Assembly (NCBI RefSeq): GCF_963921235.1
Contig: NC_086097.1
Location: forward strand, 90,088,001 to 90,152,000
Source of the DNA: Mobula hypostoma
Taxonomy: Eukaryota
Direction of reading: 5' to 3'
Length of the DNA stretch: 64,000 nucleotides
Shown here piece by piece: positions 9,385-53,959 of the stretch. The first letter of the stretch is position 1. Each line of letters starts with the position of its first letter. A program made the position numbers and the translations under genes. A model generated the notes under the pieces. It worked only from the letters and a program-made list of their open reading frames with translations, was not told where the DNA came from and ran no database searches.

Positions 9385-9893
9385 GGCAAATCGAGTGTGG
9401 AGGAGCAACATCTTATACTCCGTTTGGGTAGCCTCCAACCTGATGGCATGCGCATCGGTTTCTCAAACTTCTGGTAGTGCCTCCACTCCCCCCGCACCTC
9501 ACCATTCCCCACCCCATTTTCCCTCTCTCACCTTATCTCCTTTCCCACCCATTGCCTCCCTCTGGTGCTCCTCCTCTTCCTTTTCTTTCTTCCATGATCT
9601 TCAGTCCTCTCCTATCAGATTCCCTCTTCTCCAGTCCTGTATCTCTTTCACCAATCAACCTCCCAACTCTTTACTTCACCCCTCCCTTCATCCCAGTTCC
9701 ACCCACCACCTGGTGCTTCTTTCTCCCTCCCACTTTCTGACTCTGACTCCTCATCTTCTTCCCCAGTCCCGATGAAGGATTTTGGCCCGAAATATCGACT
9801 GTACTCTTTTCCATTGATGCTGCCTGGACTGCTGAGCTCCTCCAGCATTTTGTGTACGTTGCTCGGATATTCAGTGCCTGCACACTTTCTCTT
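9385..9893 (+). mobile_element. Penelope-like element 3' fragment
   Basis: EEQHLILRLGSLQPDGMRIGFSNF* end of GIY-YIG ORF, pyrimidine-rich tract, decayed hammerhead at 9764-9801. Confidence 0.85.
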
Positions 9894-10514
9894 GCTTGTC
9901 CTAAAAGAGAGCCAAGTGTGAGAATCACTCGGCAAAGCAGGCAGAATCCATCACAGCATCTTCTCTTTCCTGTCTGACTGCCAGCCATTTTATAAAGCTG
10001 GTGAGGACGTTGCCCATGATGGTCATTTGCAGGTGTACTCGAGGCTTATGAGGGGGCTGGCCGTGCAGGAGGAAAAACCATGAGGGTGGAGAAAGTCAAC
10101 TCAGGTACTTGAGATTGAGGGAGAGCAGCTTCCTGTAGGGTTTTGGGATTGCCCAAACAATGAAGGTACATAGACACACAGGAGGTCCAACAGTTAGGGC
10201 ATATTCTGGAGTTAGGGTATACAGCAAATATTTACTTCCCCAGCAACCAGTCTTCAGACATGAACATAGATTGTGTAGATTGAATTTAAAATGCAGCCCT
10301 GAACAGAAGCTTTCCTGCAGCTGGGCATTGGATTTGATTGCAAACCAGACGGTGCTGATTAACATTCATTTTGGGTGGGTGTGAAGAAGGAGGTGTGAAA
10401 CTATATGTTATTCAAAGGAGGCATTGTAGATACATTGTAAGTATAGAATTGTCCTGCTACACGCACAACACCCTAGAGGAACTCAGCAGGTCGGGCAGCA
10501 TCCATGGAAACTAT

Positions 10515-10552
10515 CAGTCAACGTTTCGGGCTGGAACCCTTCATCAGGACTG
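10515..10552 (-). ncRNA. Minimal type I hammerhead ribozyme motif (PLE-associated)
   Basis: CAGUC-CUGAUGA-A-GGG(UUCCAG)CCC-GAAA-CG-UU-GACUG: stem I, core, stem II, palindromic ACGU in place of stem III. Confidence 0.75.
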
Positions 10553-10816
10553 AAGAGGGAAGGGGCAGAGGCCCTATAAAGGAGGTGAGGGGAGGGTGGG
10601 AAGGAGAAGGCTGGTAGGTTCCAGGTGAAAAACCAGTAAGGGGAAAGATAGAGGGATGGGGGAGGGAAAGCAGGGAGGTGATGGGCAGGAAAGGTGAAGA
10701 AGGAATAGGGGAAAACACAATGGGTAGTAGAAGGAGGCGGAACCATGAAGGAGGTGATAGGCAGCTGGAGGAGGGGGCAGAGTGAATCTGGGATGGGGGA
10801 AGGGAGGGGGAGGGAA

Positions 10817-11143
10817 TTACCGGAAGTTGGAGAATTCAATGTTACTGACAAGGGGCTGGAGACTACCTAGATGGTATATAAGGTGTTGCTCCTCCAACCT
10901 GAGTTTAGCCTCATCATGGCAGTAGAGGAGGCCATGTATGGACATATCTGAATGGGAGTGGGAAGCAGAGTTGAAATGGGTGGCTACGGGGAGATCCTGT
11001 CTGTTTTGGCAGATGGAGCGGAGGTGCTCAACGAAGCGGTCCCCCAATCTGCGTCGGGTCTCACTGATGTAGAGGAGACCACACCGGGAGCACCGGATGC
11101 AATAGATGACCCCAACAGACTCACAAGTGAAGTGTTGCCTCAC
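10817..11143 (-). pseudogene. PLE GIY-YIG endonuclease domain remnant
   Basis: FTCESVGVIYCIRCSRCGLLYISETRRRLGDRFVEH...VATHFN. Confidence 0.9.
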
Positions 11144-11436
11144 CTGGAAGGACTGTTTGGGGCCCTGAATGGTGGCAAGAGAGGAGGTGTAGGGACAGAT
11201 GTAGCACTTATGCTTACAGGGATAAGTGCAGGGTGGGAGATCATGGAGAGGGACGTGTGGATCAGGGAGTCGGGGAGGGAACGATCCCTGTGGGAAGCGG
11301 AGAGGGGTAGAGAGGGAAAGATGTGCTTAGGGGTGGGGTCCTGTTGAAGATGGTGGAAGTCGCGGAGGATAATGTGCTGGATAATGAATTATCCTGCTGT
11401 AACCTTTGATCTGTAGCATATGTGAAACACTTATAC

Positions 11437-12082: not shown

Positions 12083-12589
12083 TCCACTAGCTCCACTATA
12101 TATCCACTAGCTTCAGTGTTTCTCTGGTGACTTTGCTCATGTTACAACAATTAGTATAAAATCTTCTCCAAATTTAAGTGTGCATCTAGCATATTGACTG
12201 ACCATTCTATCCATTGTAACATTAAAACAGAAAATGGTGGAAAAAGCTTAGCAAGTCAGAAACACACGAAATTGTGCAGATTCTGGAAATCTTTAACACA
12301 CTCACACTGCCGGAGGAGCTCAGCAAATCAGACAGCATCTATGGAGGACAATTCTTAATATCAAAGTAAACTTTATTCATAATAAAATATATTTACAAGA
12401 ATAAACTGTGAAATGCCTTTTCATTCTTTCATTCATTGTCAATGCATTAAGTAGTGTTTTATTACATTCCTTAGAACTAATAGGACTGTTGTCATTCTGT
12501 GGCCCCCCAGGGGAGATGCACTACTACAATAATTGAGGTGCTTCCTCGCCCAACCCAGCCCCTCCCTGTCCAGAAGTGGAAGAGGTAAG

Positions 12590-12908
12590 GGCTGAGCATC
12601 GACTTCTCTAACTTCCAATAATTTCTTGCCCTCCTCCTTCTCTCCTTTTCTATTCTGGCTCCCCTATCATCCCCAACTTTTCACTTGCCCAACACCTCCC
12701 TCTAGAGCCCCTCCTCCTTCCCTTTCTTCCACGGTCCACTATCCCCTCCTGTCAGATTCCTTCTTCCTCCCCCCACTTTCTTATTCTGGCTTCTTCCCCT
12801 TTCCACTGCACTCCTGATGAAGTCTCGGCCCGAAACAACGTTTGTTTATTCCCTTGCATCGATTCCGCCAGACTTGCTGAGTTCCTCCAGAATTTTGTGT
12901 GTGTTGCT
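12590..12908 (+). mobile_element. PLE 3' fragment with decayed hammerhead
   Basis: CCTGATGAAGTCTCGGCCCGAAAC then GCTGAGTTCCTCCAG..TTTTGTGTGTGTTGC. Confidence 0.8.
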
Positions 12909-13850: not shown

Positions 13851-14406
13851 TTTTTGTCATTATCTCCTATATACCTTGCCAAATTCATGCGCTAATTAGT
13901 CTTAGTAACCAGCCTCAGCACAGCTATAAATACTAACCCTTTCTGGTTCAGCCTCTAGCTGTGAAACCCAGAATTCCCTTAGTTTTCTAAATCATCTTCT
14001 CCACTTGTCAAAGACAATTTTTATATATAGTCTCTGCAGGACTGTTGGATCTCACCGTTTCTAGGTTTTCTCCATTTAGAACATATAATCTACATCAAGA
14101 ACAATTTGACACCTTTCAGGTCTGCCTACAATGAAATCCACTGCCACGTTTTTTGGTCTGTGTAAAGTGTTGTTAATGTGCTGGAACCTGCCAGCAGGCC
14201 TTATCCAACACTGAGCTAACACAACATAAAAACAGAAAACAGTAAAACTAAGTAGGTCAAGCAACATTCACCACTTCTTTTTTGACAGATACTGCCTGAC
14301 CTGCTTAGCTTTTCCATAATTTTTTTTTATTTTCTGTTTTCATGTAATATTGGCTCAGTTTTGGTCAGGCAACATTCACTGTATGTTATATCTTTGTAAA
14401 CTAACA

Positions 14407-14530
14407 TAAACACAAAAGTTTCTGCAGATGCTGGAAATCCAGAGCAAAACACAAAATGCTGGAAGAACTCAACAAGTCAGGCAGCATCTATGGACGTTGA
14501 TGTTTCAGGCCGAGACCCTTCTTCAGGACT
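14407..14530 (-). mobile_element. Short PLE end with hammerhead motif
   Basis: Reverse complement AGTCCTGAAGAAGGGTCTCGGCCTGAAACATC. Confidence 0.8.
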
Positions 14531-14717
14531 TCATCATGATCAGGTAACATAACATATTCATTTACACTGTCTACATTTTGCTTACATTCCCCTGTGAGAA
14601 ACTTAATTGAGTGCCTTCTGAACATCTGCATACATAATATCCAAACAGGTTACTGAGTAAAGGTCAACAAAATGAAACAACAGCAGATTCTACAGGTGCT
14701 GGAAATCCATAGCAGCA

Positions 14718-17566: not shown

Positions 17567-19120
17567 AGGTTCAAAGGTTGAATTTAATGTCAGAAAAATG
17601 TATACAATATACATCCTGAAATGCTTTTTCTTCACAAACATCCACAAAAACAGGGAAGTGCCCCAAAGAATGAATGGCAGTTTAACGTGAGAACCCCAAA
17701 GTCCCCCCACAGACCCCACGCGCGTAAGCAGCAGCAAGCAACAATCCCCCCTCCCCCCACCAGCAAAAAAAAGGTGCATCGGTACCGTCACCGAGCCCAA
17801 GCGTGTGCTACGCAATAGCAAAGACACAGACCAAAGTTACCCCAAAGGCTTCTCATTTCATCCGACATTCGACAAACCGCAGCAAGCAGGAGGCATAACA
17901 ACAACCCGCTGGTTTACATAGTAGTCGTAGTCATACTTTATTGATCCCGGGGGAAATTGGTTTTCGTTACAGTTGCACCATAAATAATTAAATAGCAATA
18001 AAACCATAAATAGTTAAATAGTAACATGTAAATTGTGCCAGGAAATAAGTCCAGGACCAGCCTATTGGCTCAGGATGTCTGACCCTCCAAGGGAGGAGTT
18101 GTAAAGTTTGATGGCCACAGGCAGGAATGACTTCCTATGACGCTCTGTGCTGCATCTCAGTGGAATGAGTCTCTGGCTGAATGTACTCCTGTGCCCAACC
18201 AGTACATTATGTAGTGGATGGGAGACATTGTCCAAGATGGCATGCAACTTAGACAGCATCCTCTTTTCAGACACCACTGTCAGAGAGTCCAGTTCCATCC
18301 CCACAACATCACTGGCCTTACAAATGAGTTTGTTGATTCTGTTGGTGTCTGTTACCCTCAGCCTGCTGCCCCAGCACACAACAGCAAACATGATAGCACT
18401 GGCCACCACAGACTCGTAGAACATCCTCAGCATCATCCGGCAGATGTTAAAGGCCCTCAGTCTCCTCAGGAAATAGAGACGGCTCTGACCCTTCTTGTAG
18501 ACAGCCTCAGTGTTCTTTGACCAGTCCAGTTTATTGTCAATTAGTATCCCCAGGTATTTGTAATCCTCCACCATGTCCACACTGACCCCCTGGATGGAAA
18601 CAGGGGTCACCGGTACCTTAGCTCTCCTCAGGTCTACCACCAGCTCCTTAGTCTTTTTCACATTAAGCTGCAGGTAATTCTGCTCACACCATGTGACAAA
18701 GTCCGACGTTTAAAGTCCGTCTTGTCGTTTTTTACGAGCTCTGTGTCCTAAGATCACAAAGAGCTCAGGTCTTCGGGCCCACAGCGAAAGATTTTCCAGC
18801 CTCACTGACGACACATGAGTCTCCTGCCGTGACACCGACCCTCCATCCGCCCATCTCCAGAGCCCTAAGATATTAGGCTTCCAAACACGATCAAGACTCT
18901 CAGGTCAAACCCTTGGCATGTCAAATAACAGCCAGTCGTGGAACCCCGAGAATGGGTTCCATTCCCGCAAAGAACCAAAGCCGGCGTGTAACTCCAGGTC
19001 AGGGTCTGCAAAAGAACCCTGAAGGGGAAAAATAATGATATTAAAGGTGGAAATAAATCTGTTTCCGAAGATGCAAGCAAAGGAGTTGCCATTAGGCCCC
19101 ATCATCCCTCCTAAGCTCCG
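17567..19120 (-). mobile_element. Non-coding LINE-derived element with (TTGAACCT)n tail, interrupted by Rex1
   Basis: Tail AAGGTTCAAAGGTTGAATTTAATG; GC-rich body on both sides of the insert. Confidence 0.55.
17919..18704 (-). mobile_element. Rex1/Babar-like LINE, 5'-truncated
   Basis: ORF 18062..18661 KTKELVVDLRR..YKYLG..LDWSKNT..KKGQSRLYFLRRLR; (GACTAC)n tail. Confidence 0.92.
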
Positions 19121-19827
19121 TCTTCACAATTTAATAATTCTTCATGTTCCTTTCATTCCACTTCATGAAATCTATTGGAATACAGGTTGAGTAAACATGA
19201 AGAATTTGCTAAAGCAATGCAGACACCACTAAACCCTTTATCAAAGACCTGATTGCTTGGCAAAGTTTAATCAGCTTTGTGCTGACCTGAGGCTGCTATC
19301 TGCAACTAATGGGCCCCTGGATCAGCTGCAGCGATGACTGGCTTTGTGGCCGTGGCTCACTTCTGTGAACTTCAGTTCTGAACGGTATTTGTTTACTTTT
19401 ATTGTTTGCACAATTTGTTTTTTTCTGCACATTGGGAGTTTGACAGCCTTTTTAAAAATGGGTTCTATTGGGTTTCTTTGTTTTGTGGCTGCCTGTAAGG
19501 AGATAAATCTCAAGGTTGTATACAGTATACATTGATAATAAATATACTTTGAACTTTGATTCAACATAACGATTGCCATCTGTGGAGATCTTTGGTGACT
19601 CAGGGTTTGAGTCATTCTCATCAGATTAAAAGTAATGCTAGGGTAAATATAGTGTCCGTTTGATGATCTCTGGAAGTGTCAGGGTGTTTTATGACCACAA
19701 ATCTAAAAGGGGTGAAAGGTTAGCAGGTAGGTGGGAATGTTGGCCTGAGGTTACAATCAAGTCACCTTTGATCCTATTGAGCAAATTGAAGAGTCTAAGC
19801 GGCCTCCTCCTGCTCTGTGTGTTCAAT

Positions 19828-20405
19828 CACAAATAAGAGAAAATCTGCAGATGCTGGAAATTCAAGCAACACACACAATATGCTGGAAGAACTCAGCAGG
19901 CCAGGCAGCATCAGTGGAAAAGAATAAACAGTCGATGTTTCAGGCCGAGACCCTGCATCAGGGCTGGAAAATAGATGAGGAGTTAGAGTAAGAAAGTGGC
20001 GGGGGGAGGGAGAGGGGAGGAAGAACCACAATGTGATAGGTGAAACCTGGGGGGGGCGGTGGAATTGGTGAAGTAACGAGCTGGGAAGTTAATTACTGAA
20101 AGAGATACAGGCCTGGAAAAGGGGGAATCTGACAGAAGAGGACAGAAGGCCATGGGAGACAGAAAAGAGAGAGGAGCACCAGAGGGAGGTGATGGGCAGG
20201 TAAGGATATAAGGTGAGAGAGGTGAGAAACCCTCCCGGTTTCCCCTATCAATTTGTGGTTCTTCCTCCCCTCCTCCCACTTTCTTACTCTGACTCCTCAT
20301 CTTTTTCTCCAATACTGAAGAAGGGTCTTGGGCCGAAAGGTCAACTGTGCTCTTTTCCATAAATGCTGACTGGCCTGCTGAGTTCCTCCAGCATTTTGTG
20401 TGTTT
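19828..20405. mobile_element. Inverted pair of PLE ends, each with a hammerhead motif
   Basis: 19855-20047 is the reverse complement of about 20237-20405; motifs at 19929-19966 (-) and 20310-20347 (+). Confidence 0.85.
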
Positions 20406-21668: not shown

Positions 21669-21677
21669 TATTTTCTG

Positions 21678-26314: not shown

Positions 26315-26445
26315 TACAAACAGGAGAAAATCTGCAGATGCTGTAAATCCAAGCAACACACAGAAAATGCTGGAGGAACTCAGCAGGCCAGGCTTCATCT
26401 ACGGAAAACAGTGGATGTTTTGAGACCCTTCAGCAGGACTGGAAA
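26315..26445 (-). mobile_element. Short PLE end, hammerhead partly deleted
   Basis: AAATCTGCAGATGCTG..AATGCTGGAGGAACTCAGCAGGCCAGG..GAGACCCTTCAGCAGGACTG. Confidence 0.75.
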
Positions 26446-27603
26446 AAAAGATCTGTACTCATCTATACTAATTCCATTTATCAGTATTTAGTCTGAGTGC
26501 TTAGCAGTCAAAACCACAAAGCAAGTCCCAAGTTCATAGACTACTGGGCTACAATGATGGCTTACCTTTGTTAATTTCAGAGACCTGGACCACATCCAGC
26601 AAGCACCAAGGCATTGGAGAGGTACCACCAATATTGTCTCCACAAAATCCTCCAGATCTGCTGGCAGGTTAAACAAAGTAATGTTAGAATGTTGATGTTT
26701 TGGAAAGAGTGCAGAAGAGGTTTACCAGGACGCTGCCTGCTTTAGAGGGCATGTGCTATCACGAGAGGCTGGATAGACTTGTGTTTTCTTTGAAGTGGTG
26801 AAGGCTGAGAGGAGAGCTGATGGAGGTTAATGGCATTATGACAGAGAGATTTCAGTAAGGCAAAGAATTATGTTTGAGCACTGTCTCTTTAAATAGCACA
26901 ATCTTGGAAAAAGTGGGGTTAGTAAAACCTAGTTATTGTGTAAATAATTGAGGATTATTGTTTTATTGGACCGCTGATATTGTAAATCACACTGCAGATG
27001 AATTTAATTATTGTTGACATTATTTGTGGAGATTGCTGTTGGGAAAAAAAAGCGCATGCACAAACTCTGTTGAAGAGGCAGGTAATATATTTCCTGGAAG
27101 GCAACAAAACACCCAGAAACGGGCACAATCTTTCTCTGCTCTTAGCATGTCAATGGTCCCTCCCATCTGTTCAACAATCTCTTTGACCCCCTACCATCAG
27201 GCAAGAGGTACCATGGCATTAGGACAAGAATTATTAGGATGAGAAACAGCTTCTTCCACTGGGCCGGGAGACCACTGAACTCCCTATCACCACCCAGGTC
27301 TCATCACACATGAAGCACCGGTAGCTCTGTAGTTTATTTTTTAACTTGTGTCATAAATGCACCTTATTAATTTACTAGTGCTAATATTACTCTTTGGGTT
27401 ATGTGTGTGTGACCAGAGGCATATCTAAGGTATGGCAGGTATGGCACCTGCCCTGGGCGCCACTGAGCAGTTTCTATTAATGTCAGACAAGCCATCCTCA
27501 GATAATGAAAAAAGAATTTTCTTCAGATGTATGATCCGTCTTTGATTATCATGGGTAAGAAGCACTAGGATGGACTTATTTCAGAGCATTGTGTATGAAG
27601 ACC

Positions 27604-31558: not shown

Positions 31559-33558
31559 TTTTCATGTAGTGCCATAATTTGTTAATTAAAAGATTAACGA
31601 GCTTGACTTGCATTTTTGAGCTGATATTATGGTAAAGTTATCTAAAAGATGGGTGTCAGATGTTTGGACAGGGGCACAATTTCAGTGCTTGCCATAGGCG
31701 CTATTTTCGGTAGATACGCCCCTGTGTGTGACTTATATGTACAGCTTGCTCCAGAGGAACTTTGTTTCATCTGGTGGTATACACGTGTGCAGTTAAATTT
31801 GAGGTTCGAGTTTAATTGTCATTGAACCACACTCATGAATGCAGCCAAATGAAACAGTGTTGTGACAAAAACATCTGTGCGAAAAGAAGGCTTCCCAGTT
31901 CTGACAAAAGGACTTTGACCTGATATGTTAGAGCTGTGTTTCCCTTCACACAGATATGGCCTGACCTGCTGAGTATTCGTGCCATTAACTTCAGTATCAC
32001 GCATAGGAATTTATAGGACCATAATTTTGATAAAACTGCAAATTAACAAACAGAAACTTGGAAAAGACTCAATGATCAATATGTCCAACCAATACAAACA
32101 ACTATCAACAAAACCATTAGAAATTAATTTATGTAGTTCAATTGGATCAAAATCAAATTCTGTAAGGCTCTGGTCAGATTGTACTGTAATAATTGTATCT
32201 AGCTCTGGTCACCAAAACTCAAAATGCAAAACATACTTGAGCAAGCTCAGACACTCTCAGCTTCCCAGTCTAAGGATCATTCCCGGCTTCTTTTCCTGAT
32301 TCTTGCCACATCTGACTGTATGCTTTAGAGCAGTTGTTCTCAATGTGGGCCATATTGTCCCTTAGGATGCCATGCCAGATTTTGTAGGGGCCACGAGTAA
32401 GAAACAAGAAAATGGGGGAAACCAGTTTCTGAATGGGTGTTTGCTGTTATAATGAAATATTACTAAAATAAATAAATAATTTAGTTGGATCCCTGAATGA
32501 AATGAATGGGAACATATGCCAGATGATGCAAACAAGGCAGCAGAACCATTTAGCCTTTGTGTGCTGGGGAGGGAGGTGATGTGGCACATCAATTATTATC
32601 TCCGCTCCTGCTTATCACCATTCACACCCTGCAGGGCGGCCCACTGAGCCTCGCTCCACATCCATCCCCCAAATCACAAACTGTGGATAGAGCGAGGCTG
32701 TCAGCAGGCCTGCAGCAGGAGGCTGGCTCTCTTTGCCTTCCACTGACCTGTGCAGGTTATAATACTTACAAAACATGACATGAAGGCTGCAGTCACCACA
32801 GCGGGGGCAACTGCCAGAAACAGTTAAACTGCGGAGAAACAAGATCACGTGGTTTACCATTGCCATCGCAATCTACCACCACAACTTCCATTAAATTCCC
32901 GATATTTATCATCTTTTGAAAGGAAGTCCAATTTGCTTTTCTTGGCGAATACATTTCTCTTTATTGCCTCATAGAATTTGCATACAGGTGTCCTCCACTT
33001 TTCGAATGTTCGCTTTATGAAACCTCACTGTTACGAAAGACCTACACTAGTTACCTGTTTTCGCTAACAGAAAGTGTTTTCACTGTTACGAAAAAAGGCA
33101 GCGCGCGCCCCGAGCAGCCACTGCTTCCCCAGAACGGCATTCTCGCCAGCTTTGCTTAAACACATGCCTGTGAGCATCCGTTAGCAAGATGAGTTCTAAG
33201 GTATCGGAAAAGCCTGAAAGAGCTCGTAAGGGTGTTACACTTAGTGTAAAACTAGACATAATTATGCATTTTGATCGTGGTGAACGAAGCAAGGACAAAG
33301 TGAGTTTGGTTTGTGGAAGTTAACAAAGATGATGTTGAAGAGGTTTTGGCATCCCATGACCAAGAGCTGATAGATGAAGAGCTGATGCAATTGGAAGAAG
33401 AAAGGATAACAATCGAAACCGAATGCAGTAGCAAAAGTGAAGTCGCCCAGAAACTGAACGTGAAGCAACTGCGTGAGATTTTCACTACAATCGACAACAA
33501 TGATTGCAGAGAAATACGACTTTAATTTTGAAAGGGTATGTCGTCTTAGGGCATATTT

Positions 33559-36037: not shown

Positions 36038-37026
36038 CTGTAGGCCGTCTCGTCATCCCCTCTGATCAGGCCAACCACTGTGGTGTCGTCTGCGAACTTG
36101 ATTATGGAGTTAGAACCATGTACAGGAACGCAGTCATAGGTGAAAAGGGAGTACAGAAGAGGGCTCAGCACACTGCCTTGAGGCACGCCGGTGTTCAGGG
36201 TGAGAGTGGAGGAGGAGAGGTTGTCTAACTTATCTGATTGGGGTCTGTTAGTCAGGAAGTCCAAGGTCCAATTGCAGAGGGATACATTGATACCAAGCTT
36301 GCGAAGTTTGGTGATCAGTTTGGAGGGGATCACAGTATTGAATGCCAAACTAAAGTCAATGAACAGCATTCTGACATAAGAGTTGGGGCTGTCCAGGTGG
36401 GTCGGGGCAGAGTGAAGTGCCGTGGAGATGGCGTCCTCTGTTGACCTGTTGGTGCGATAGGCAAATTGATGGGGGTCCAGGGTAGTGGGCAGACAGGATT
36501 TTAGATGTGATAGAACCAGTCTCTCAAAGCATTTTGCAATGATGGGGGTGAGTGCAACTGGGCGGAAGTCATTCAGGCCGGTGGCAGTGAAATGCTTCAG
36601 CACTGGAACGATGGTGGCGATCTTGATCTATATGTTACCATTATTTTAGCTTTTATGTGTTATTTGGATTGATTTGGTAGGTTATTTTTGGGTCTGCGAA
36701 CGCTCACAAATTTTTCCCATATAAATAAATGGTAATTGCTTATTTGCTTTACGACATTCCGGCTTACGATCTGTTTCATAGGAACGCTTTACCTTCGGAT
36801 GGCGGGGGAAACCTGTATATAATAGCATTTTCTAAAAATTTAAATTATTTTTTAAAAATACTACCTAAAAAGCTAAATTTATTATTACATGTACATTTAA
36901 TACTGATACCGATACATTAGATTATACTTAGTATAATTCTTCAACAATTACTAAATTTCTATAGAGCCTACTTACACAATTGTATTGTTACTGTTTTTTA
37001 TATACACACACACACACACACACATA

Positions 37027-37400: not shown

Positions 37401-37489
37401 TATATACATACACTGTATAAGACACACACACACACACATCTATATAAACAAAGCATAAATAAATATACAATATATATATAATTTTAAAA

Positions 37490-38359: not shown

Positions 38360-38535
38360 ACACACAAAGCAACAATATTAAGTGCTTTTTCATTGCTGGT
38401 TGCAAGAATATAGTGGCGAGCATTCAGTCCATTATGTCAGGGGCAAAAAGCTTGTTTATCTCAATTGTTGCTTTCACTGAGACAAGCACAATGACAGAGT
38501 GCAACAGCTCAGTGAGAACTAACCCAGTCATATGC

Positions 38536-38870
38536 AAGCAACACACATCAAAGTTGCTGGTGAATGCAGCAGGCCAGGCAGCATCTCTAGGAAGAGGTAC
38601 AGTCAACATTTCGGGCCGAGACCCTTCATCAGGACTAACTGAAAGAAGAGCTAGTAAGAGATTTGAAAGTGGGAGGGGGAGGGGGAGATCCAAAATGATA
38701 GGAGAAGACAGGAGGGGGAGGGATGGATCCAAGAGCTGGACAGGTGATTGGCAAAGGAGATATGAGAGGATCATGGGACAGGAGGCCCAGGGAGAAAGAA
38801 AAGGGGGAGAGGGGGAAACCCAGAGGATGGGCAAGGGGTATAGTGAGAGGGACAGAGGGAGAAAAAGAAA
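38536..38870 (-). mobile_element. PLE 3' end
   Basis: Purine-rich tract plus hammerhead motif as in 10459-10816. Confidence 0.85.
38600..38637 (-). ncRNA. Minimal hammerhead motif, palindrome mutated
   Basis: UAGUC-CUGAUGA-A-GGG(UCUCGG)CCC-GAAA-UG-UU-GACUG. Confidence 0.6.
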
Positions 38871-41550: not shown

Positions 41551-42786
41551 TGTCATGGTCCGGATCGGGGTCCCTTTAAATTTACCTTGTTTATGTTACG
41601 AACTGGACCGTTGATTCCCTGTTTTCCCATGTCCCTCGACTTTGGTGATTAGAGGCAATTAACGCCCGGCTGAACCGGTAGTTTATAGTCTCCGGCTTTC
41701 AGCCGTTCGGCGCAGGACCGTCTGCAAAGTCACGGAGTGCCAATGTCATCTGGCCGGAGCAAGCCTGGTCTCTGCCAAAGGGTGTGCCGGTAATTCCCCT
41801 TTCCTCATCGGAGCAACCCTGTCCAGTTACCTCGCCAAAGCGAGCCTGCAAAGTTTCCTCACCGAGGTGGGTCCGTCAGTTAACCCGCCGGAGGGAATCA
41901 AGAACTGCTGTCTACTGTTCCCAGGTCAAGTCAAGAGCTCGCCACTACCCGGAAGCTCCAAGTCAAGTCCTGTCCCTGGTGGCATTCAAGCACCAAGTCA
42001 AGTCCTGGCCCTGGCGGCATTCAAGCACCAAGTCAAGTCCTGGCCCTGGCGACATTCAAGTACCAAGTCAAGCCCTGGCCCTGGCGGCTTCCCAGTTCTG
42101 AGACAAATCCTGGCCTTGGCGGTCTGTGATTCCTGCCCTACCCCCTTGTCTGAATCCCTTCTCTGCCCCTCTCGACTCTAGCCCTCGTCTGCTGCCCCCG
42201 CCTGCACTTTGGTCTAGTTCCATCGCCGGAGCTAGATTGGTACTGTCCGGTGTTCATTCGTGTTGGTCTTGTCTTGTCTTGTTTTGTCCTTGCCTCCATG
42301 GGGTAAGTCAGGCCGTCTTGCCATTGCCCTGCAGAGGATCATGAGTCCCGGCCCTATGTCCTGTACCCAAGGAGGGGTCCCGACTCTGTGTTCTGTGTAT
42401 GTGTCTATGGTTCCATGTACCTGCTCCCCTAGACCGAGGCTCTGTGTTCCCATGTTCCCCCTCTCTCTAGCCCATGTCATGTCCATGCCTGGTTCTGGGG
42501 TCCTAGCCCGAGGCAAGACCCAGGTACTGGGTCCTTGCCCAGTCTCGGGCTCGGAGTCCATACCCTAGCCTCTTCATGTCTCCTCTAGTTCTGGGAGCCG
42601 ATTCCGAGTCCAAGCCCAGACCATTGGCCCCAGCCTAGTCGTAGTCCTCAGTCCTTGTCCAGTTTGCTACTCCTGCTCCTGCCTTGCTCTCCTGGTATCG
42701 AACAATAAACTAAATCTAAGTAACCTCACAAGATGTGTCTTGCATTTGGGTCCACCCTTGCTCCCAATGCCCCCGCCATTGTGACA
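41551..42786 (+). mobile_element. Solo LTR (1236 bp)
   Basis: TGTCA...TGACA, perfect 5-bp TSD GATCG, AATAAA 42704-42709; RTE frame rejoins as ANSDR|PERCTAL. Confidence 0.95.
41959..42088 (+). repeat. Approx. 35-bp minisatellite inside solo LTR
   Basis: CAAGTCAAGTCCTGGCCCTGGCGGCATTCAAGCAC, nearly 4 copies. Confidence 0.9.
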
Positions 42787-45700
42787 GATCGCCCAGAGAG
42801 ATGCACTGCACTTGTTGCTCATGTGCTCAAGGACTACAGAGTGGACATTGCGGCTTTCCAGGAGTCTCGACTTGCTGGAGAGGGCACGCTTTGTGAAGAG
42901 AAAGGAGGGTACACATTCTTCTAATCTGGCAGACCCGAAGAAGAACGAAGAGAATCTGGTGTGTGCTTGGCTATCACGAACTGCCTTGCAGCAAAGCTAC
43001 CAACCCTGCCTGTTGCTGTAAATGACCAAATCCAGATCTTGCATACAGCTTTGCAAGGAAAACGCCACCTCACCAAAGTCAACGTTTACACCCCAACTCT
43101 GCTTAATCCCAGTGAAGTCAAGGAGGCATTCTACAGTGAGCTGAAAACCACCATCAGTAGCGTGGCAACTTCCGATAAGCTGCTGTTGCTGGGAGACTTT
43201 AATGCTCGGGTTGGCAAGGAGTCCACTGTGTGGCCTGGTGTGATTGGATGCCAAGGGGTTGGCAACAGTAACGGTAACGGTCTACTGCTCTTGTCAATGA
43301 GCACAGAATTCAAACTGTGAATTACTAGCACACTGTTCAGATTGCCAGACAAGCTCAAATGAACAAGGATGCATCCACGATCTAAAAGCTGGCATCTCAT
43401 TGACTATGTCATCACCCGACAATGAGACATCTCTGACGTTCGTGTCACCAGAGTTAAGCGTGGAGCTGAGTGCTCAGCTGATCATCAAATGGTGTGGTCG
43501 GATCTATGTCTATCGATCAAACCTCCACGCAGACTGAACACTGCCAAACCACCCAAAAAGCTGAACACCACCAAACTGAAACATCGCCAGTGTGCTGATG
43601 CCCTGAAATCCTCTATGGAAACTGCTGTAAGCAGACTGGTTGAGAATCCACCAGACGATATTACTGACCACTGGAATGTCTTCAAAGAAACGGTCTACAG
43701 CGCTGCCCAGGACACCTTGGGGAAAGTCAAGTGCCAGCATCAGGACTGCTTTGATGAGAACAACCAATCTGTGCAAGAGCTTTCTAAGAGCTAAGGCAGC
43801 CACACACCAAGCTCTTCTTCGACACCCAAACTCAAGTTCCAGAAACGTGCCATTTTGAGTGCAAAATCAACTTTGCAGAGGCAGCTCAGAGCTATGAAAG
43901 ACCAGTGGTGGGCCAACAAGGCCAAGGAGTTACAAGCCTTCACTGACCGTAATGACTTAAGAAGCTTCTATGAAGTGATCAAGGTTGTGTATGGTCCATC
44001 AAAACAAGGCGCCTCACAACTCCTGAGCAAGGACAGTACACCCATCTTCGCTGAGAAGTCAGTGCACATAAAAAGATGGCAAGAACACTCCCACAAACTG
44101 CTGAACAGACCAGGAACCATCACTGATGAAGAACTAGACAGAGTACACCCTCAACCATACTGTTTGAGCTAGATACTCCCCCTACTCTTCATGAGGACAT
44201 CAAAGCCATCAGACAGCTAAAACCCAACAAAGCACCAGGGCCTGACGGTACCACAGCCGAGATCTACCAGTATGGTGGTCACACACTGACATCATGCCTG
44301 CACCAGCTGTTCACAAAGTTGTGGGGAGCTGCAGAACTACCACAAGACTTCAAAGATGCATCAATTGTGACCATCTACTAGAACAAGGGAGACAAGAGAG
44401 ACTGCAACGATTACCGTGGCATCTCTCTTCTGTCAGTTGCGGGAAAATGCCTCGCGAAGATCATCCTTAGGCGCTTGGTGTCCAACATCAGCGACAACAT
44501 CCTTCCAGAAAGCCAGTGTGGTTTTTGAACAGGTCGTAGTACAGTGGACATGATCTTTTCACTGAGGCAGCTCCATGAGAAATGTGTTGAGCAGCAGAGA
44601 AGATTCTATGTCACATTTGTTGATCTAACCAAAGTGTTTGACACTGTTGGTAGTGATGGCCTGTGGAAGCTCCTACCAAAATTCGGTTGCCCCCCCCCCC
44701 CAAGCCTAACCAACATCATCTGTCAGTTCCACAAAGGCATGGAAAGCCACATCAACATGTGTGGTGAGTGGTCAGACCCATTTTCCATCAGCAATGGCGT
44801 AAAACAGGGTTGTGTTCTGGGTCCTACTCTGTTTGGACTATTCTTCGCTGCTGTTCTTCAGGATGCCACATCAGACCTGAAGTCAGGGATCTTCCTACAA
44901 ATGAGGACTGATGGTGGGCTCCTCAACCTCGCAAGACTGAGAGCAAAAACAGAAGTCAGGGACATCGTGGTGCATGAGCTGCAGTTTGCTGATGACTGTG
45001 CACTGGTTGCCCACTCTCTCGAAGACTTACAGGCGATCACCAGTCGCTTTGCCAGTACAGCCAAAAGCTTCGGACTGACAATCAGCCTGAACAAGACGGA
45101 AGTTTTGTACCAACTGGCTCCTTGCTCAAGCTACGAAGAACCAACTGTCCTCATTGATGACACTCGTCTCAATGCTGTCAACAAGTTTTGCTACCTGGGC
45201 AGCATAATAACATCCTCAGCTTCTCTGGATGTAGAGACTGAGTCAAGAACCAGAAAAGCCTGCTTTGCCTCTGGTCAGCTGAAAGATCGAGTTTGGTCAC
45301 AGAACGTCAGGTTGGCCACCAAGTGCAAGGTATACAGGGCCGTTGTCATATCAGCCTTGCTATACAGATGTGAGATGTGGTGCCCTTATCAGAGACACTT
45401 ACGCCAGCTTGACCAACTGCAGCAGCATCACCTACGTTCTCTGATGAAGATCACCTGATGAGACAAGGTCTCCAATACTGAGGTCCTCTCTCGAGCCGGA
45501 ATGCCAGCAGTTTCAACCTTGGTGATGTCAGCCCAACTGCGCTGGGTAGGACATGTTGTTGGAATGCCTGACGGAAGACTGCCCAAGGACATCTTGTACA
45601 GCCAACTGTCCAGTGGTACCCAAAAACGAGGAGGCCAGCGACTACGGTACAAGGATGTTCTGTACAGGAGCCTCAAGAAAGCTGACATTGCCCCATCAAC

Positions 45701-48700
45701 ATGGGAGGATCTGGCTCAAGATCGCTCACGGTGGAGGGACGCCATCAGAAAAGGTGTGGACGCTGCTGAGAACAAGCTCAACGAGGCAACAGAGGAAAGG
45801 CACAGGAAGTGCCACAACAGAGCTTCTGCCCCTGCTGCCCCTCCAGGCCTCACCTGCCCAGTATGTGGCAAGCAGTCCTGTACAGCCACTCCAGGACGCA
45901 CATATCAAACCCCACTAACTGACTGAAAGGAAGAGAGAGAGAGAGAGAGAGAGGTCCAGGAGGTCTGTCAGCCACCGCCGCTGGCTCTGTTGCTGCAGCT
46001 CCCGCCCTGCCTGGACGGTCTCACTGCAGGACACTGCAGCTGTGCTGCCGATGTTGTAGCGCTGCGTCGGCGCAGTTGCTGATGAGAGGGGCATGGTGAA
46101 CTGCCCTGGGGTGGCATTGCCCCCTCGCAGGTTTCGGTGCAAAGCATTGCATTTCATCGGGCTGCTGCAGGGTGTGCTACACCGCGGCGGGTTGCTGTGA
46201 GTCTGGCAGTGGTGTTGCTGCGTCTGCCTGGTCCACTTCCTGGAGCTGCCCTGCCAGAAAGCCACGGCTTCAGTGCCCAGGTAGAGCATTGCCACCGACA
46301 CATCCACATGGGCACCCCCCCATTGGGACAGCAGGCCCAGGCCAACGATGCAGGACTCCTGGATATCGGCGAGCCACACCTCCTGCTCCACTGTTATTTT
46401 CCCAACTGCGATGCGCTGCCTCCTCTTCCCTCGCATTGCCGCACGGCCACCGGTGACCGTAGCCAGCTGAACCCCCATTGTTGTCCACCCAGGCAAAGAC
46501 GGCTGGTCTGTGCTGGGGAGGACACCGGAACTGGTGATGGTTGACCACGTGTCCACCAGCACAAAGCATCAGACATCCTCCACCACACAGTCCACGTAGA
46601 AGCCTTGCCCGTCACCCAAATGGCCCAACAGGGGAGGTGACAACGGAGGGATTCTGCTGGAGGTTTCGAGCGGCACTTCTCCCTCGGCATACCCGGATGG
46701 CTGTGCTGGGCTGCAGCATGGCACTGGTGCGGGGCAGTTCTGGGCCACGTGGCATTCCTCACCGAGATAACTGCGTGGCACCTGACGGGGCTGGTTGGAC
46801 CTTTCTCACGGCCTCCTCCTCATCAGTTTTCTCCTTCGCTTCGATGACACAAGTTCAGATTCAAGGCATGTGGGGCAACGCTGGAACGTCTTGGGGGCTA
46901 AAACTGCATCTGCTTCTCCACCTCTGTCAGTGCCTTGGCCAGCGATGATGGTGATATCAGGTGAACATGCTGCCAAACACACTCTGGCATCAGCGCCTTT
47001 ACAAAGGCATGGAGGGCAAGCTCTTCCTGGATCTCGGGAGGGAACTGAGGGTAGCCGTGCCAAGCACAGTGGTGGCCATCTGCTGCAAACATCCCCAGGC
47101 TTTCTCCCATACTATCCAGTTCTTCCCTCGTTACTTCCTCCAAAGGCCTCTGCTCGAAATGCCACTCCAGCGCCGCTACGAGGGCCTGTAGTCATGCTGT
47201 TCAGCTGGCATTAGGTCGAGGAGGGCCCACAGGGCAACCCCTCCAGTGCCAAGGCAAAGTGCACCGCCGTCTCATTGGGGCTCCACCGGTTGTGCCATGC
47301 GGCAAGTTTGACTTGCGCTAGCTAAGGCTCCAGGCGACTGGTACCATGGTATCTGGAGAGCTTCAGGGAGGACCTTGTGGCATTAATTGCTGGGGCCTGT
47401 TGGTCCTCCTCTTTCGCCTGTGCCATTAGTGGTGCCTACCACATTGCCCATCTTCCTTGGGTGCCCCGCCACTGGCCACGAGGGAGGTAGGTGATCACTC
47501 TGCCATGTACCCTGGGATGGCACAAAGCTCCATTTTCCAGGTTCTCCCTCTGTGTCGGCATCCCATTGTCGGCAGCAGTGCGGGGGAGGTATACCACTCG
47601 GTCCCTCGACTTAGTCCTTGAGTGTTAAGGCACTCCATCCAATGTCGTAGCTCTTCACTTCCACTGAAAATTTCTAATCCCACCCAATGTGGCAGCATTC
47701 GGTCAACGATGATGGATGAGGAAAGCTCATTTATCTCAACGGCCGTTTGAATTGTGACAACTCAATCACAGACAGAGTGCAGTGGCTCGGTGAGAACTAA
47801 TCTAGTCACATACAGACAGAGGAGCTGATTATTACACACCTCGGTTACATTCAGGGTTGTAACTCAAGCAAACGACTTTATAACCCAAGCTAAAATGTAA
47901 CAATAAATGAACTTGAACATCTGACCATAATTCCATTGAACACACAGACCACAAACACAATTTAAAACAAAAACAATAAGTAGCGCTGGCTGCTAGGAAT
48001 GCTGGAGCGAGCTGTCGACCATGTCCTTGGAGCGCCACACTATTATTTATGTTATAAATAAAGTGTCCTATTCAGAGCTTTGAAATAGTTTTATTGTTCA
48101 TATACAGTTGTAACATTATATTTAACATATAACAAACCTATAACCTGTTAAAACATAAATATTGACTGCATATTAGAATAATTAGTACAGTTGAGCATCT
48201 AACAGAGACAATGGAGGGAGGGTCCACAGTGGTAAATGAAAGTCACAACTGAGAACGGTTGAGAACCACTGCAGAGAAGATCCAAAAGGAGGTTTTGTAT
48301 CCAATATCTGATTCCAAGAGAAGATTGCATCAATTTCGGTTTTCTGCGGGGAGAAGAGAACCCGAGATATGACTTATGGAAGTTGGAAAATAGTTAAAGG
48401 AATAGAAAGATCAATCATTGGAGAAACAAGCACTGAAAAAATATTTGGATTTTTGATGATGGATAAATCAGTTCCTCCTCTGTAATTATAATGATATGAT
48501 AATGCTTCACAAATGCAAAAGTCGCAATAAATATCCGTGTATTAAAAAGCCTGGCTTATCCTTCACATCACCTCTTACCATTATAAAGCTCTATGCCTGT
48601 ATTTATAATGGAAACTGCCAACTCAAGCTTTGTCAAGCTTTATTACAGCCTCCTACACAACCTTCTACTTTTGTGTGCTGCTGCAACTTCTGAAAGCAAT

Positions 48701-48755
48701 TCATTTCCTCCTGTTACCTTTAAGTTTAATAACTGGATCCTAAGGGTTATAGAAT

Positions 48756-50589: not shown

Positions 50590-51107
50590 ACAAAAAAAAG
50601 CACTCCAGAAGCTAGACTTCATTAAAAGCCTGAGAAAATTTGGTATATCACCAAAGACTAACAAATTTCTACAAATGTATCACAGAGCGCATTCTGAATT
50701 GTATCACCGCCTGATATTGATGATGCATAGGATCAAACGAGGCTGCCAGCCAGCTCCATCATGTGCACTTGCCTCCCCACCATCGAAGATACAGTATCTT
50801 CAAAAGGCGATGTTTCAATAAGGTGACATCCATCATTAAGGATCCTCACCACCCAGTACATGCCCTCGTTTCATTGCTACCATCAGGGAGGAGGCACAGG
50901 AGTCTGAAGACACACATTCAATCATTAAGAAGCAACTTCCCCTTTGCCTTCAGAGCTCTAAATGGCCCATGAACTCTACCTTGCTTTCTCGCTGTTGCAA
51001 TATTTATTTAGTATAACTTTTAGTAATTTTTTATGTCTTGCATTGGACTGCTGCCACAAAACAAATTTTATGATATATGTCAGTTATAATAAACCTGATT
51101 CTGATTC
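50590..51107 (+). mobile_element. Rex1-like 3' fragment
   Basis: SIIKDPHHPVHALVSLLPSGRR; (GATTCT) tail. Confidence 0.8.
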
Positions 51108-51929
51108 CGGCTGAGAACTATCTACCCCATTCGCTATCCATTCACCAATCTACCTCATGTGATCTCATGGTATTATGCTAGGCCAAAATTTATCCTTCAG
51201 CCGACATCCTCAATTACCACACCTCTACAATATGTCGCCAGTTGTAAAGTGTTTTGGACTATCACGGGGCTGCAGAAGATGTCATGAAATAACTCATTCC
51301 TTCATTCAGCTTACTTGCTCGTCACAACATGGCTCAGGCAGAAGATGCTACGTAGTTGCATAGAGAGAGCTGAGCCTTTAGAAAGCTGTGTGCATATTGC
51401 ATATCCATTGAGCTAAAGAGCATTAATGATGTGAATAAGACTCTTACAACTTCTAAGTACATAACAGATGGAACAAGTATTCACCAAACACAAGACTCTT
51501 TCCAGTCACAAGGGATTCTGCACATGCTGGAAATCTTCAGAAAACATGGGAGGAGCTTAGCAGGTCAGGCAGCATCTGAAGAGGGAAATGTACAGTTGAC
51601 GTTTCGGGCCAAGATCTTTAGTTTCCCTCCATGGATGCTACCTGACCTGCTGAGATCCGCCAGCGTTCTGTGTTTGATGCTACTCCGAGTCCGCAGCATT
51701 AAACACACGATATGAGCAGGCAGGCTTTTCTGAAGTTTGTTCCATCGCAGGAGTTTCAAAGACAGGGCACAGATGCTGCTGTGGCAACGCAGCATGTTTC
51801 GTTCTACTGAGGGGGGTAGATTTCGAGGCACACATCTCAGCCTTTTATCGTGGGAGCTTGTATTTGAAAATGGTTTTCACCAGCCACCAGCCCATTTTCT
51901 ACATGGATTAAAGCTGGCCAATACCCAGG

Positions 51930-52250
51930 CATTAACCTTTGTGGCACATTTGTTAGTGTTGCTACCTCTGAGATCCAGACACCTGGGCTGGAGCCTCACC
52001 TTGGAGTTTTGCATCTTTTCCATATGATTGCATAGGTTTCCATAAGAAGCTCCTTTTTCTTCCCACATTTCAAAGATGTGCTGGTAAGTTAATTGGCTTC
52101 TATATAGCTCATGTGACAATAGAATCCAAAGCGGAATGGATAGCCAGGCAGGTAACAAGAAAACAAGACAGACAGAATGGTTTTGATGGTACTGTTCTGC
52201 TGAGTGACAGAGAGAACTAATTGGTCCAAATGGCTTTCTTCTGTGTTGTA
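51930..52250 (+). mobile_element. Degraded V-SINE
   Basis: TGGAGTTTTGCATC..TCCCACATTTCAAAGATGTGCTGGT. Confidence 0.65.
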
Positions 52251-53079
52251 ATAAGTACGCAAATTCCTAACTAAGCTGTTGCCCTCATGTGAGTAGGATG
52301 CTAGATTTGGATGCAGCAGCAACATTAGCTATGGATTAAAATTAATTCAATGCTGCGATGAAATTAGGGTGTCCTGAGTACTTGAAAACCAAGACATAAA
52401 TAAGCCAGTCGCGAATCCTTGGAAGCAGATCAGAAGCATCCTGTAGATAGCTCTGATATATAAATCGGCCCTGGAAGGGATTACATGGAATTTACATGGC
52501 GCTACTTAAGATTAGTCAGATGATAGGGTGTCTCAATCAAACTTTGTTTCACATGATACACTACTTTATTCCCTGCTGCAGAAAAGAAGCCACATTTACT
52601 GCTGTGCCTTTTCGCACCCAGATATATTATCAGCAGCATTTGACCATGGCTGCTGACCAACGACCCGAAACGTTGACTGTTCACTTCCACGGATCCTGCC
52701 CGACCTGCTGAGTTCCTCCAGTGTGTCGTGTGTGTTGCTTTGACCCCAGCATCTGCAGAGTATTTTGTGTGTATGGCTCGTTTCAAGTCACTTGCCATCA
52801 ACTGGGAAATTTGCAGATGCTTTTGGGGCTCCTATTCTGGATCAGTCTGCATACTTCCCTCAGAAAATTAGCCTTCTTGGATTTGAGCCTCTGAAATGGG
52901 AAGTCAGAAAAACAAACGGTGGAAAGTAATATCTGGACAATGATTCCTGGAATATCATGTCAAGCGCACCGCCAAAATCCTGATATGAATATAGAGACCT
53001 CCTCACAGACTTCTCACTTTTAGAGCCCAGCCATAAACATCACTCAGTTCAACTCAGGCAACTTGAAGTCCCAAAATTA

Positions 53080-53548
53080 TAGTATTGTGCAGAAGTCTTA
53101 GGTATATATATAGCTAGGGTGAATAAGACATTGGCACAGTACAATATTTGTCAATGTGAAATGGAGAGTGAGTTTGTAAATGTGGTGGGAGCAAAGGATG
53201 TTGGGAATGGTGAGGCTAGAGCGCATGTGAGGGGTGTGGGACAGGTGGCAGAGTGATTTGATTCCAAACAATTGGCTTATTGATTATTACAGAATGTCTC
53301 TCTGGTGCTTCCCGCTCTCTTCCTTCCCCTTTCTGTAACTGTGATTCCCCTCTCCCTAGCCCCTTCCCACTCTCAGTCCATAATAGGGACCCACATCAGA
53401 ATCAGGTTGATCATCACTCACATGTCATAAAATTTATTGTTTATTTTTGTGGCAGCAGTACAGTGCAATGCATAAAATGACTACAGTACTGTGAAAGTCT
53501 TAGGCTCCCTAGCTATACATATGTGCCTAAGACTTTTGCACAGTACTG
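53080..53548. mobile_element. Composite Tc1/mariner-type MITE
   Basis: TA flanks; two approx. 65-bp palindromic units (TIR CAGTACTGTGCAAAAGTCTTAGG) bracketing unrelated sequence. Confidence 0.8.
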
Positions 53549-53959
53549 TAGGTACAGTGTTCTTTCTGCAAATTCTACAGAACAGTCTCCAAGAGAGTAA
53601 ATGCGAGTGAGTTTTCATAAGTGTTCCCATTTCATTGCCTGGTTATGGTACTAGTATGCATTTATTTGACTATGCATTCAATGTTGACGGCCTCTTCATC
53701 TTCAAAGGGATCATCTTTGCAAACTGTTGTCTTGTAGAAAGTCACTGGCCAGCAACTAGAAACATGAACATTGGGAAGCTGGGAGTTCTGGTTCATCCAA
53801 TGTAGTCTTGGTTCAGACACATGAGATTGCAAATGCTGGAATCTGGAGCAACACACAAATGACTGGAGGAACTCAGCAGGCCAGGTAGTATCTATAAAGG
53901 GAAATGGACATTCAGTGGGTTGACCCTTCATCTGGACTGTTTTTGACTGGTCTTGGTTG

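What the first reader, a model, noticed from the sequence alone, without database searches (positions are those of the whole stretch)
9764..53938. A dispersed family of minimal hammerhead-ribozyme PLE ends (about 12 in 64 kb)
Seen: consensus CAGTC-CTGATGA-AGGG-TCTCGG-CCC-GAAA-CGTC-GACTG recurs, variably decayed, at about 9764(+), 10515(-), 12809(+), 14496(-), 19929(-), 20310(+), 26409(-), 31895(+), 38600(-), 51594(-), 52660(+) and 53910(-). It is followed by the same GATGCTGCC..CCTGCTGAGTTCCTCCAGCA tail. Established: PLE pseudo-LTRs carry minimal type I hammerheads, and non-LTR retrozymes are thought to be PLE-mobilised. Inference: many copies are only 120-350 bp with no coding sequence, so this may be a very high-copy ribozyme-bearing retrozyme/SINE-like family, placing many latent cleavage motifs in any transcript across the region.
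Basis: partly seen in the sequence, partly recalled or inferred. Interest (0 to 1): 0.72.

Follow-up and report, generated by a model that had tools for sequence, protein, structure and literature searches.

The report
Penelope retrotransposon stubs starting at hammerhead
These repeats are real but mostly ordinary: they are the decaying ribozyme-bearing ends of a known kind of jumping gene (Penelope-like), an estimated 850,000 of them in what is likely a shark or ray genome, and the one clue worth keeping is that many begin right at the front of the ribozyme rather than at its cut site, which likely marks where the copied RNA started.

Summary
All 12 sites are real; a profile finds 17 in the window, the genome's ordinary density (324 hits in 1.32 Mb sampled, about 850,000 genome-wide). 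Each is the terminal repeat of an autonomous 3.5-kb Penelope-like element (RT, zinc-finger linker, GIY-YIG), whose minimal hammerhead is already described. They are not a retrozyme or SINE family: no tandem array in the sample, short and long copies share the same variants in family A, every subfamily has both, and cores decay at the background rate in long copies. Only 2 window copies keep a complete motif, both lone. But the short copies are not random truncations either: 5' ends are about 15-fold denser at the hammerhead's front edge (peak 3-4 bases before the core) and show no peak at the cleavage site; 3' ends fall at two sites about 35 bases apart; about a quarter of arms lie in compact head-to-head pairs, with target duplications in 12 of 23 young pairs. 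Best reading: run-off copies of uncleaved RNA that starts at the hammerhead. Rare 250-base tandem mini-units exist elsewhere in the genome. The scan has reported this family and its start-site pile-up before, in this and other genomes.

The parts
9398..9899 (+). PLE 3' end, subfamily C3: last EN codons, pyrimidine-rich 3' region, decayed hammerhead, long (tailed) 3' end; 5' end at -367
10456..11382 (-). 5'-truncated PLE, subfamily B: linker zinc finger and GIY-YIG coding region, 3' region, complete hammerhead motif, short 3' end
10817..11326 (-). open frame of 169 codons: C-terminal linker and GIY-YIG endonuclease of the PLE
   Evidence: Pfam GIY-YIG only E 0.091, below cut-off
10517..10550 (-). 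minimal type I hammerhead with core and stems I-III intact
12760..12908 (+). decayed PLE end; further upstream homology at 12677-12766; short 3' end
14279..14323 (+). weak tail fragment
14408..14530 (-). stub starting at -4, long 3' end, stem I partner deleted
14669..14717 (-). weak tail fragment (E 0.0026)
19820..20222 (-). left arm of a head-to-head insertion, subfamily C3, 5' end -244, long 3' end
20232..20403 (+). right arm of the same insertion, 5' end -82, short 3' end
26316..26452 (-). stub aligned from -16, long 3' end, stem II partly deleted
31891..31974 (+). old decayed stub, aligned from -10
38532..38867 (-). PLE end of the youngest subfamily A, 5' end -231, short 3' end
38602..38635 (-). 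minimal type I hammerhead with core and stems I-III intact (wobble in stem III)
51507..51614 (-). left arm of a compact head-to-head insertion, 5' end +11, long 3' end
52661..52773 (+). subfamily B stub, 5' end +14 (lacks CUGANGA), long 3' end
53833..53939 (-). stub starting at -5, stem II deleted

Best explanation
The motifs are the hammerhead-bearing terminal repeats of autonomous 3.5-kb Penelope-like retroelements, and the short copies are likely by-products of the elements' own enzyme copying uncleaved RNA that likely begins at the front of the hammerhead. Positions count from C3 of CUGANGA (0); the cut site is +27/+28. Shown: full-length units with a hammerhead at each end, 3.5 kb apart, and one ORF starting about 170 bases after the first; two preferred 3' ends (about +95 and +131); target duplications of about 10-15 bp; head-to-head pairs with one end of each kind; a pile-up of 5' ends at -4 to -2; neutral decay after insertion. 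Inferred: the endonuclease nicks both strands with a stagger; RT primes internally at one of the two sites, as PAc does in vitro; when it primes on the copy of these sites near the RNA's 5' end it runs off after 100-135 bases and leaves a stub; priming from both nicks leaves the mirror-image pair; priming at the far repeat gives ordinary long or randomly truncated copies. Inferred and untested: the 5' end is a transcription start (the YYAGTCC there fits a recalled initiator consensus YYANWYY). The dispersed motifs are predicted to be mostly inert.
For: Same-strand hammerhead downstream of the EN match in 28 of 30 loci by pattern, one more by profile (L021). 31 of 31 hits with >=400 bp of shared upstream sequence have PLE coding sequence there. 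Full-length units: L167 (3552 bp), L163 (3477 bp), L054 (3511 bp). RT passes Pfam RVT_1 (E 3.7e-7); CX2-5CxxC linker and GIY-YIG-like motif; best named relatives are bamboo shark proteins at 66-69%. 3' ends of 193 young arms: 80 at +84..104, 79 at +123..137, 8 between, 26 elsewhere. 43 adjacent head-to-head pairs within 50 bp against 5 same-strand and 3 tail-to-tail; 27 of 35 classifiable pairs (42 mapped) have one short and one long end, p 8e-4; duplication score >=10 in 12 of 23 young pairs, 0 of 230 controls, and 8 of 66 singles against 0.2%. 5' end rate at +20..-24 is 14.9 times that at -25..-420 in family A (79 arms, p 1e-16) and 16 times at +5..-9 in 129 unpaired young arms; at +25..+31 it equals its neighbours (3 events). 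Whole-genome exact counts for a family-A motif: 42,530 start at -2; 3.8% lack G at -3, 8.0% of the rest lack A at -4, 5.0% of the rest have a purine at -5, giving roughly 2-4%, 8-9% and 5-6% of copies ending at -2, -3, -4 (mutation rate and flank composition assumed). PAc: internal priming at two sites near the ORF start, both strands nicked and extended, hammerhead cleavage not needed (PMC11167929).
Against: No RNA 5' end was mapped. The pile-up is smeared from about +20 to -24, and part of it can come from microhomology: GTC at -3..-1 is complementary to GAC at +2..+4 in family A, and C at -4 looked over-represented (about 40 of 100 listed rows by eye). An RT stall or a processed end would look alike. 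Full-length copies have 5' repeats of any length (starts at -428 or beyond, -336, -264, -236 or beyond, -31, +44, +70, +92), so upstream sequence is not tied to one start. No excess G suggesting a copied cap at -5 (about 45 G to 55 A in 100 listed rows by eye). Older subfamilies are mapped less precisely (84-89% identity).
Confidence: 0.62

Rival explanations
1. Same PLE origin, but the pile-up marks a place where RT stalls or where the two cDNAs or cDNA and target anneal (hammerhead stems, GTC/GAC microhomology, entry into the pyrimidine tract), not the RNA's 5' end.
For: Smear of ends across the hammerhead; 55 young arms in compact pairs end from -24 to +84; palindromic junctions; palindromes at inverted junctions are described (PMC3846280 passages).
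Against: The peak lies where RT leaves the structure, not where it enters; it persists in unpaired copies (14 of 60 listed unpaired ends fall at -3 or -2); the rate drops to background straight after -25 although the pyrimidine tract runs on for about 250 bases.
Confidence: 0.2
2. The 5' end is made by RNA processing at a 3' splice site: a long pyrimidine tract followed by YAG ends at -3 in every subfamily, as the D. virilis Penelope intron ends at helix I.
For: YAG precedes TCCTGA in all five subfamily consensuses while its stem I partner varies; D. virilis precedent (PMC4209133; PMC2377424 passages).
Against: Splicing predicts ends at -2 with an upstream exon attached; whole-genome counts peak at -3/-4; short copies have unrelated flanks, some with the target duplication directly adjacent; none of 20 mini-unit junctions is an exact GT-AG join by eye, though the pattern required G at -3.
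Confidence: 0.08
3. One reading: a separate non-autonomous retrozyme or SINE-like family, amplified from short masters or RNA circles.
For: 218 of 318 arms have no sequence beyond -25; there is a preferred 5' boundary; tandem mini-units of 248-265 bp exist, one junction in two independent insertions; retrozymes in one chondrichthyan are reported (bioRxiv 10.64898/2026.07.22.740005).
Against: 0 hammerhead-bearing arrays in 1.32 Mb; boundaries are not the cleavage site; short and long family-A copies share six polymorphic columns at like frequencies (p >= 0.48), only two of 137 columns differ nominally (p 0.04); all five subfamilies have both classes; stubs stop at the priming sites and lack the ORF-start region that PAc needs for binding.
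Confidence: 0.06
4. The dispersed hammerheads are active or selected and cut host transcripts.
For: About 9 x 10^4 complete motifs are estimated genome-wide (34 in 1.32 Mb, 0 in reversed control); an unrestricted test showed fewer core changes (ratio 0.64, p 2e-5); long family-A copies ratio 0.41, p 0.07.
Against: In 85 long copies, free of alignment-end bias, the ratio is 0.93 (p 0.36); CpG decay is symmetric at C17/G1.1 (51 v 51) and roughly so at C15.2/G16.2 (55 v 71); single min-HHRs showed no cleavage (PMC4209133) and the PAc ribozyme needed its protein (PMC11167929); head-to-head arms put the two motifs on opposite strands, so they cannot form a dimer in one transcript.
Confidence: 0.04

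Closest known systems
[quoted passage not shown]
   Same: Extra base between A9 and stem II, G10.1-C11.1 pair, palindromic 15.2-16.2 with no loop 3, mostly single dispersed motifs tied to truncated PLEs, some opposite-strand pairs.
   Different: Copy number (about 9 x 10^4 complete motifs estimated here; 4,000-9,000 reported for coelacanth and Xenopus); stem II is short (3 bp plus U-G); no shark or ray is named in the parts read.
PAc, Poseidon PLE of Anolis (Frangieh et al. 2024, PMC11167929)
   Same: Two RT start sites defining an optional tail; both strands primed; uncleaved RNA as template; hammerhead near the ORF start.
   Different: This element has the Neptune/Nematis-type zinc-finger linker; its ORF starts after the tail rather than inside the hammerhead; a 5' pile-up of genomic stubs is not described in the parts read.
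EN+ PLE insertion architecture (Arkhipova et al. 2013, PMC3846280; Craig et al. 2021, PMC8557442)
   Same: 5' truncation, partial tandems, inverted 5' copy, 30-40 bp tail on one end only, 8-10 bp TSDs, solo pLTRs, palindromic junctions.
   Different: Here the commonest product is a 100-135 bp stub or a compact mirror pair; those papers (passages) ascribe solo pLTRs to recombination or deletion and palindromes to self-priming.
Non-LTR retrozymes (PMC7229834; bioRxiv 10.64898/2026.07.22.740005)
   Same: Type I hammerhead, pLTR-related, 170-400 nt units; the rare 248-265 bp mini-tandems here fit the layout.
   Different: The dispersed copies of the finding are monomers or inverted pairs, not tandem repeats, with minimal rather than canonical hammerheads and no shown circles.

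Membership tests
EN+ Penelope-like element | single ORF with RT and C-terminal GIY-YIG endonuclease | tested here: met
   RVT_1 above cut-off; EN motif and weak Pfam GIY-YIG; relatives carry PF00078, some also PF01541; long frames in L161-L168
EN+ Penelope-like element | pLTRs from partial tandems, inverted 5' copies, optional 30-40 bp tail, TSDs | tested here: met
Neptune clade | zinc-finger linker CX2-5CxxC between RT and EN | tested here: met
   CKRKCYTC in L162; shared with Nematis according to PMC8557442
Neptune clade | placement in an RT tree with named PLE clades | not tested
   no named reference set in hand
Minimal type I hammerhead | CUGANGA, GAAA, UH, stems I and II, palindromic stem III | tested here: met
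   all five subfamily consensuses carry the core boxes; 34 complete motifs in 1.32 Mb, 2 in the window
Minimal type I hammerhead | compensatory covariation in stems | tested here: inconclusive
   15 hand-picked rows: 86.7% paired v 85.4% shuffled; 3 pairs changed on both sides, reached by 76 of 500 shuffles
Minimal type I hammerhead | self-cleavage (as dimer or protein-assisted) | not testable with these tools
   needs in vitro assay; folding of consensus monomers and dimers did not give the active fold as minimum
Non-LTR retrozyme | head-to-tail tandem units each with a hammerhead | tested here: not met
   0 of 238 TRF arrays in 1.32 Mb overlap a hit; none in the window; met only by rare mini-units elsewhere
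Non-LTR retrozyme | unit-length linear and circular RNAs from ribozyme cleavage | not testable with these tools
   no raw RNA reads offered; genomic 5' ends show no peak at +28
SINE-like non-autonomous family | own lineage with private diagnostic variants | tested here: not met
   39 short v 40 long family-A copies share variant frequencies; tested in family A only
SINE-like non-autonomous family | defined 5' boundary | tested here: met
   peak at -4..-2 with a smear

The most novel reading that the evidence does not exclude
PLEs replicate through a strong-stop-like step: the RNA starts at the hammerhead, RT primes 100-135 bases in, runs off the 5' end and must jump to the far repeat to copy the ORF. 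Hundreds of thousands of stubs would be failed jumps, mirror pairs would be two run-off cDNAs from the two nicks, and mis-jumps into the ORF start would be the birth route of tandem retrozymes, caught here as 248-265 bp mini-units of which at least one lineage has moved again.
Probability: 0.25. Interest if true: 0.62.

Novelty: new member of a known kind. Interest (0 to 1): 0.3.

Why it matters
As a family it is ordinary: PLE hammerheads, tails and inverted ends are published. Its value is as a very large natural data set on an unresolved question, how PLEs replicate and what their hammerhead does. The insertions say that the template was not cut at the ribozyme, that both strands are primed from two fixed sites, and that copying often ends at the hammerhead's front edge, which gives base-level predictions for 5' RACE and an in vitro assay. 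At least 7% of sampled bases are PLE-derived, so the family also matters for annotating these genomes.

Tried and rejected
Rfam: no match at E<=1; the loose core pattern alone is barely above chance (5 v 2.0 expected). No tRNA-like head in the window. First all-against-all estimate of 5' ends looked continuous but was inflated by inverted arms shared between copies; replaced by sense-only alignment to subfamily consensuses (318 of 324 hits mapped, 6 dropped). Apparent core conservation did not hold in long copies. The tail as coding sequence: open in frame with the ORF in some family-B copies but not in family A, so rejected as a general feature. Sequencing runs: no RNA holder listed; four runs laid were contigs only, type guessed, so nothing on expression, cleavage ends or circles. 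Folding and cofolding of consensuses were uninformative on activity. Strand bias in introns was not tested: no gene annotation. A ninth block of sample sequence was not obtained, so the sample is 1.32 Mb (132 evenly spaced 10-kb stretches of 14 large contigs). Literature: no paper in the library held Penelope + stingray + repeat + genome assembly, Penelope-like + elasmobranch + hammerhead ribozyme, or three of Penelope-like elements, strong-stop, template switch, pseudo-LTR; these searches miss subscription journals and Repbase. Supplements of PMC4209133 and of the 2026 preprint were not seen and may list shark or skate motifs.
Full report
Observation. All 12 sites are present. The tail motif has 10 matches against 0.02 expected, and a profile finds 17 copies in the window and none in reversed control sequence. 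The window lies on a 256-Mb contig of a 3.48-Gb genome. In 132 evenly spaced 10-kb stretches the profile has 324 hits, 0 in the reversed control: about 850,000 genome-wide (standard error about 54,000) and 15.7 expected per 64 kb. The window is typical. The host is likely a cartilaginous fish, because the closest named proteins are from a bamboo shark (66-69%).

What the motif belongs to. The copy at 10515 is preceded by a frame with a zinc-finger linker and GIY-YIG-like motif. Its 30 best genomic matches have a same-strand hammerhead downstream in 28 cases by pattern, one more by profile; L023 has only an inverted one. In the first 800 kb plus the window, 31 of 31 hits with 400 bp or more of shared upstream sequence carry PLE coding sequence there. 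Full-length units with a hammerhead at both ends are L167 (3552 bp), L163 (3477 bp) and L054 (3511 bp); after the first hammerhead the 'tail' runs on into the ORF start. RT passes the Pfam cut-off and the CX2-5CxxC linker is present, which PMC8557442 gives for Neptune and Nematis; no tree was built. Five working subfamilies were defined by eye from a tree and best matches, the youngest at 94% median identity. At least 7.2% of sampled bases match PLE references.

The hammerhead. With 0 as C3: stem I GUC/GAC with variable outer pairs, CUGANGA, one extra A, stem II GGG/CCY closed by U-G, GAAA, palindromic ACGU, cleavage after +27. This is the min-HHR of PMC4209133. A strict descriptor finds 34 complete motifs in 1.32 Mb and 0 in the reversed control, and 2 in the window. 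Covariation was inconclusive on 15 rows. An unrestricted test showed fewer changes in the core than in the tail (77 v 120), but the core lies at the alignment end of short copies; in 85 long copies it is 36 v 38.9 (p 0.36), with a non-significant deficit in 37 long family-A copies (3 v 7.3, p 0.07). CpG decay is near symmetric. So the core is kept in source elements and decays after insertion.

Ends. Of 318 mapped arms, 218 have nothing beyond -25 and 61 reach beyond -300; 223 are 150 bases or shorter. The 3' ends are bimodal, about +95 and +131, the published optional tail. Adjacent head-to-head pairs within 50 bp number 43, against 5 same-strand and 3 tail-to-tail; 85 of 318 arms are in such pairs. 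27 of 35 classifiable pairs have one end of each type, and 12 of 23 young pairs have a target duplication scoring 10 or more against 0 of 230 controls. Each pair is thus one insertion primed from both sides (inference, in line with PAc nicking and extending both strands).

The 5' ends are the informative part. In family A the rate per 100 bases is 0.77, 1.77 and 1.24 at +20..6, +5..-9 and -10..-24, against 0.03-0.10 upstream, a 14.9-fold excess. It holds in 129 unpaired young arms (1.82 v 0.11), while +25..+31 around the cut site shows 0.38, like its neighbours. Flanks of short copies are unrelated or are the inverted arm. Whole-genome exact counts place the peak at -3 and -4. TRF finds no hammerhead-bearing array in the sample.

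Mechanism. Shown are the anatomy, the two 3' ends, the duplications, the pairing rule, the 5' pile-up and the lack of a peak at the cut site. Taken from PMC11167929 are internal priming near the ORF start, two-strand activity and no need for ribozyme cleavage. Inferred is that the RNA begins at the hammerhead and that priming on its 5'-proximal sites gives run-off stubs (0.62). Rivals are a stall or microhomology hot spot (0.2), a splice-site-related end (0.08), a retrozyme or SINE family (0.06) and active host-cutting motifs (0.04).

Retrozyme-like exceptions. A joint seen in one contig led to a pattern search that found 20 places where the ORF start is joined back to the hammerhead; some are 2-2.4 tandem units of 248-265 bp at 99% identity, and one junction is in two independent insertions. 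They are rare (none in 1.32 Mb) and none is in the window. They fit the proposal that retrozymes arise from pLTRs (bioRxiv 10.64898/2026.07.22.740005).

Literature seen. PMC4209133: parts 1-2 of 4 (abstract, results, discussion). PMC11167929: parts 1-2 of 4. The 2026 preprint: parts 1-3 of 5. Passages only: PMC8557442, PMC3846280, PMC8969392, PMC7229834, PMC2377424. No supplements were seen. Searches found no paper on this family in sharks or rays or on a strong-stop step in PLEs. Initiator and branch-point consensuses are recalled. Earlier notes of this scan describe the same family, the start-site pile-up, mirror pairs and mini-tandems in this and other genomes; my pile-up and mini-unit measurements came before I read them, the whole-genome counts after; they are not independent support.

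Verdict. Real, very abundant, a new member of a known kind; not a retrozyme or SINE family. Interest 0.3, carried by the mechanistic clue in the 5' ends.

Noticed in passing
L251-L271 (G000 C2, C5, C9, C12, C36, C40, C50, C55, C58, C63, C71, C76): Mini-units in which the ORF start is joined back to the hammerhead: 20 exact-pattern hits, mostly different junctions; three loci among L251-L265 show 2.0-2.4 tandem units of 248-265 bp at 99% identity. One junction occurs in two independent insertions 98.5% alike, one of them duplicated with its flanks. Retrozyme-like layout.
   Followed up: partly
L054:1605-1852, run X1: One contig joins 1852 back to 1605 (248 bases), like the shared mini-unit junction; the letters between are not known and the run type is a guess.
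   Followed up: no
G000 whole genome: An exact 22-base motif from the ORF start occurs 921 times against 42,530 for an exact 28-base hammerhead motif, so ends outnumber ORF starts by tens of times (motifs not strictly comparable).
   Followed up: partly
upstream of every hammerhead, e.g. window 38636-38867: About 250 bases of pyrimidine tract ending in YAG, with branch-point-like CTCAC or CTGAC (recalled consensus) in subfamilies A and C3: a strong predicted splice acceptor that could be exonised when sense-oriented in introns.
   Followed up: partly
window 60311-62539 (-): Long LINE reverse transcriptase remnants in three frames, likely CR1-type by recall.
   Followed up: no
window 18062-18709, 29481-30542, 35971-36627, 44529-45926: Further non-LTR retrotransposon fragments (RVT_1 or ALKBH8_N hits for three of them).
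   Followed up: no
window 7751-8350 and 27658-28776: DNA transposon remnants: Tc5/pogo-type HTH (E 1.4e-5) and a weak DUF4371 match.
   Followed up: no
window 41953-42122: 35-bp minisatellite, 4-5 copies, in a GC-rich block 38-48 kb.
   Followed up: no
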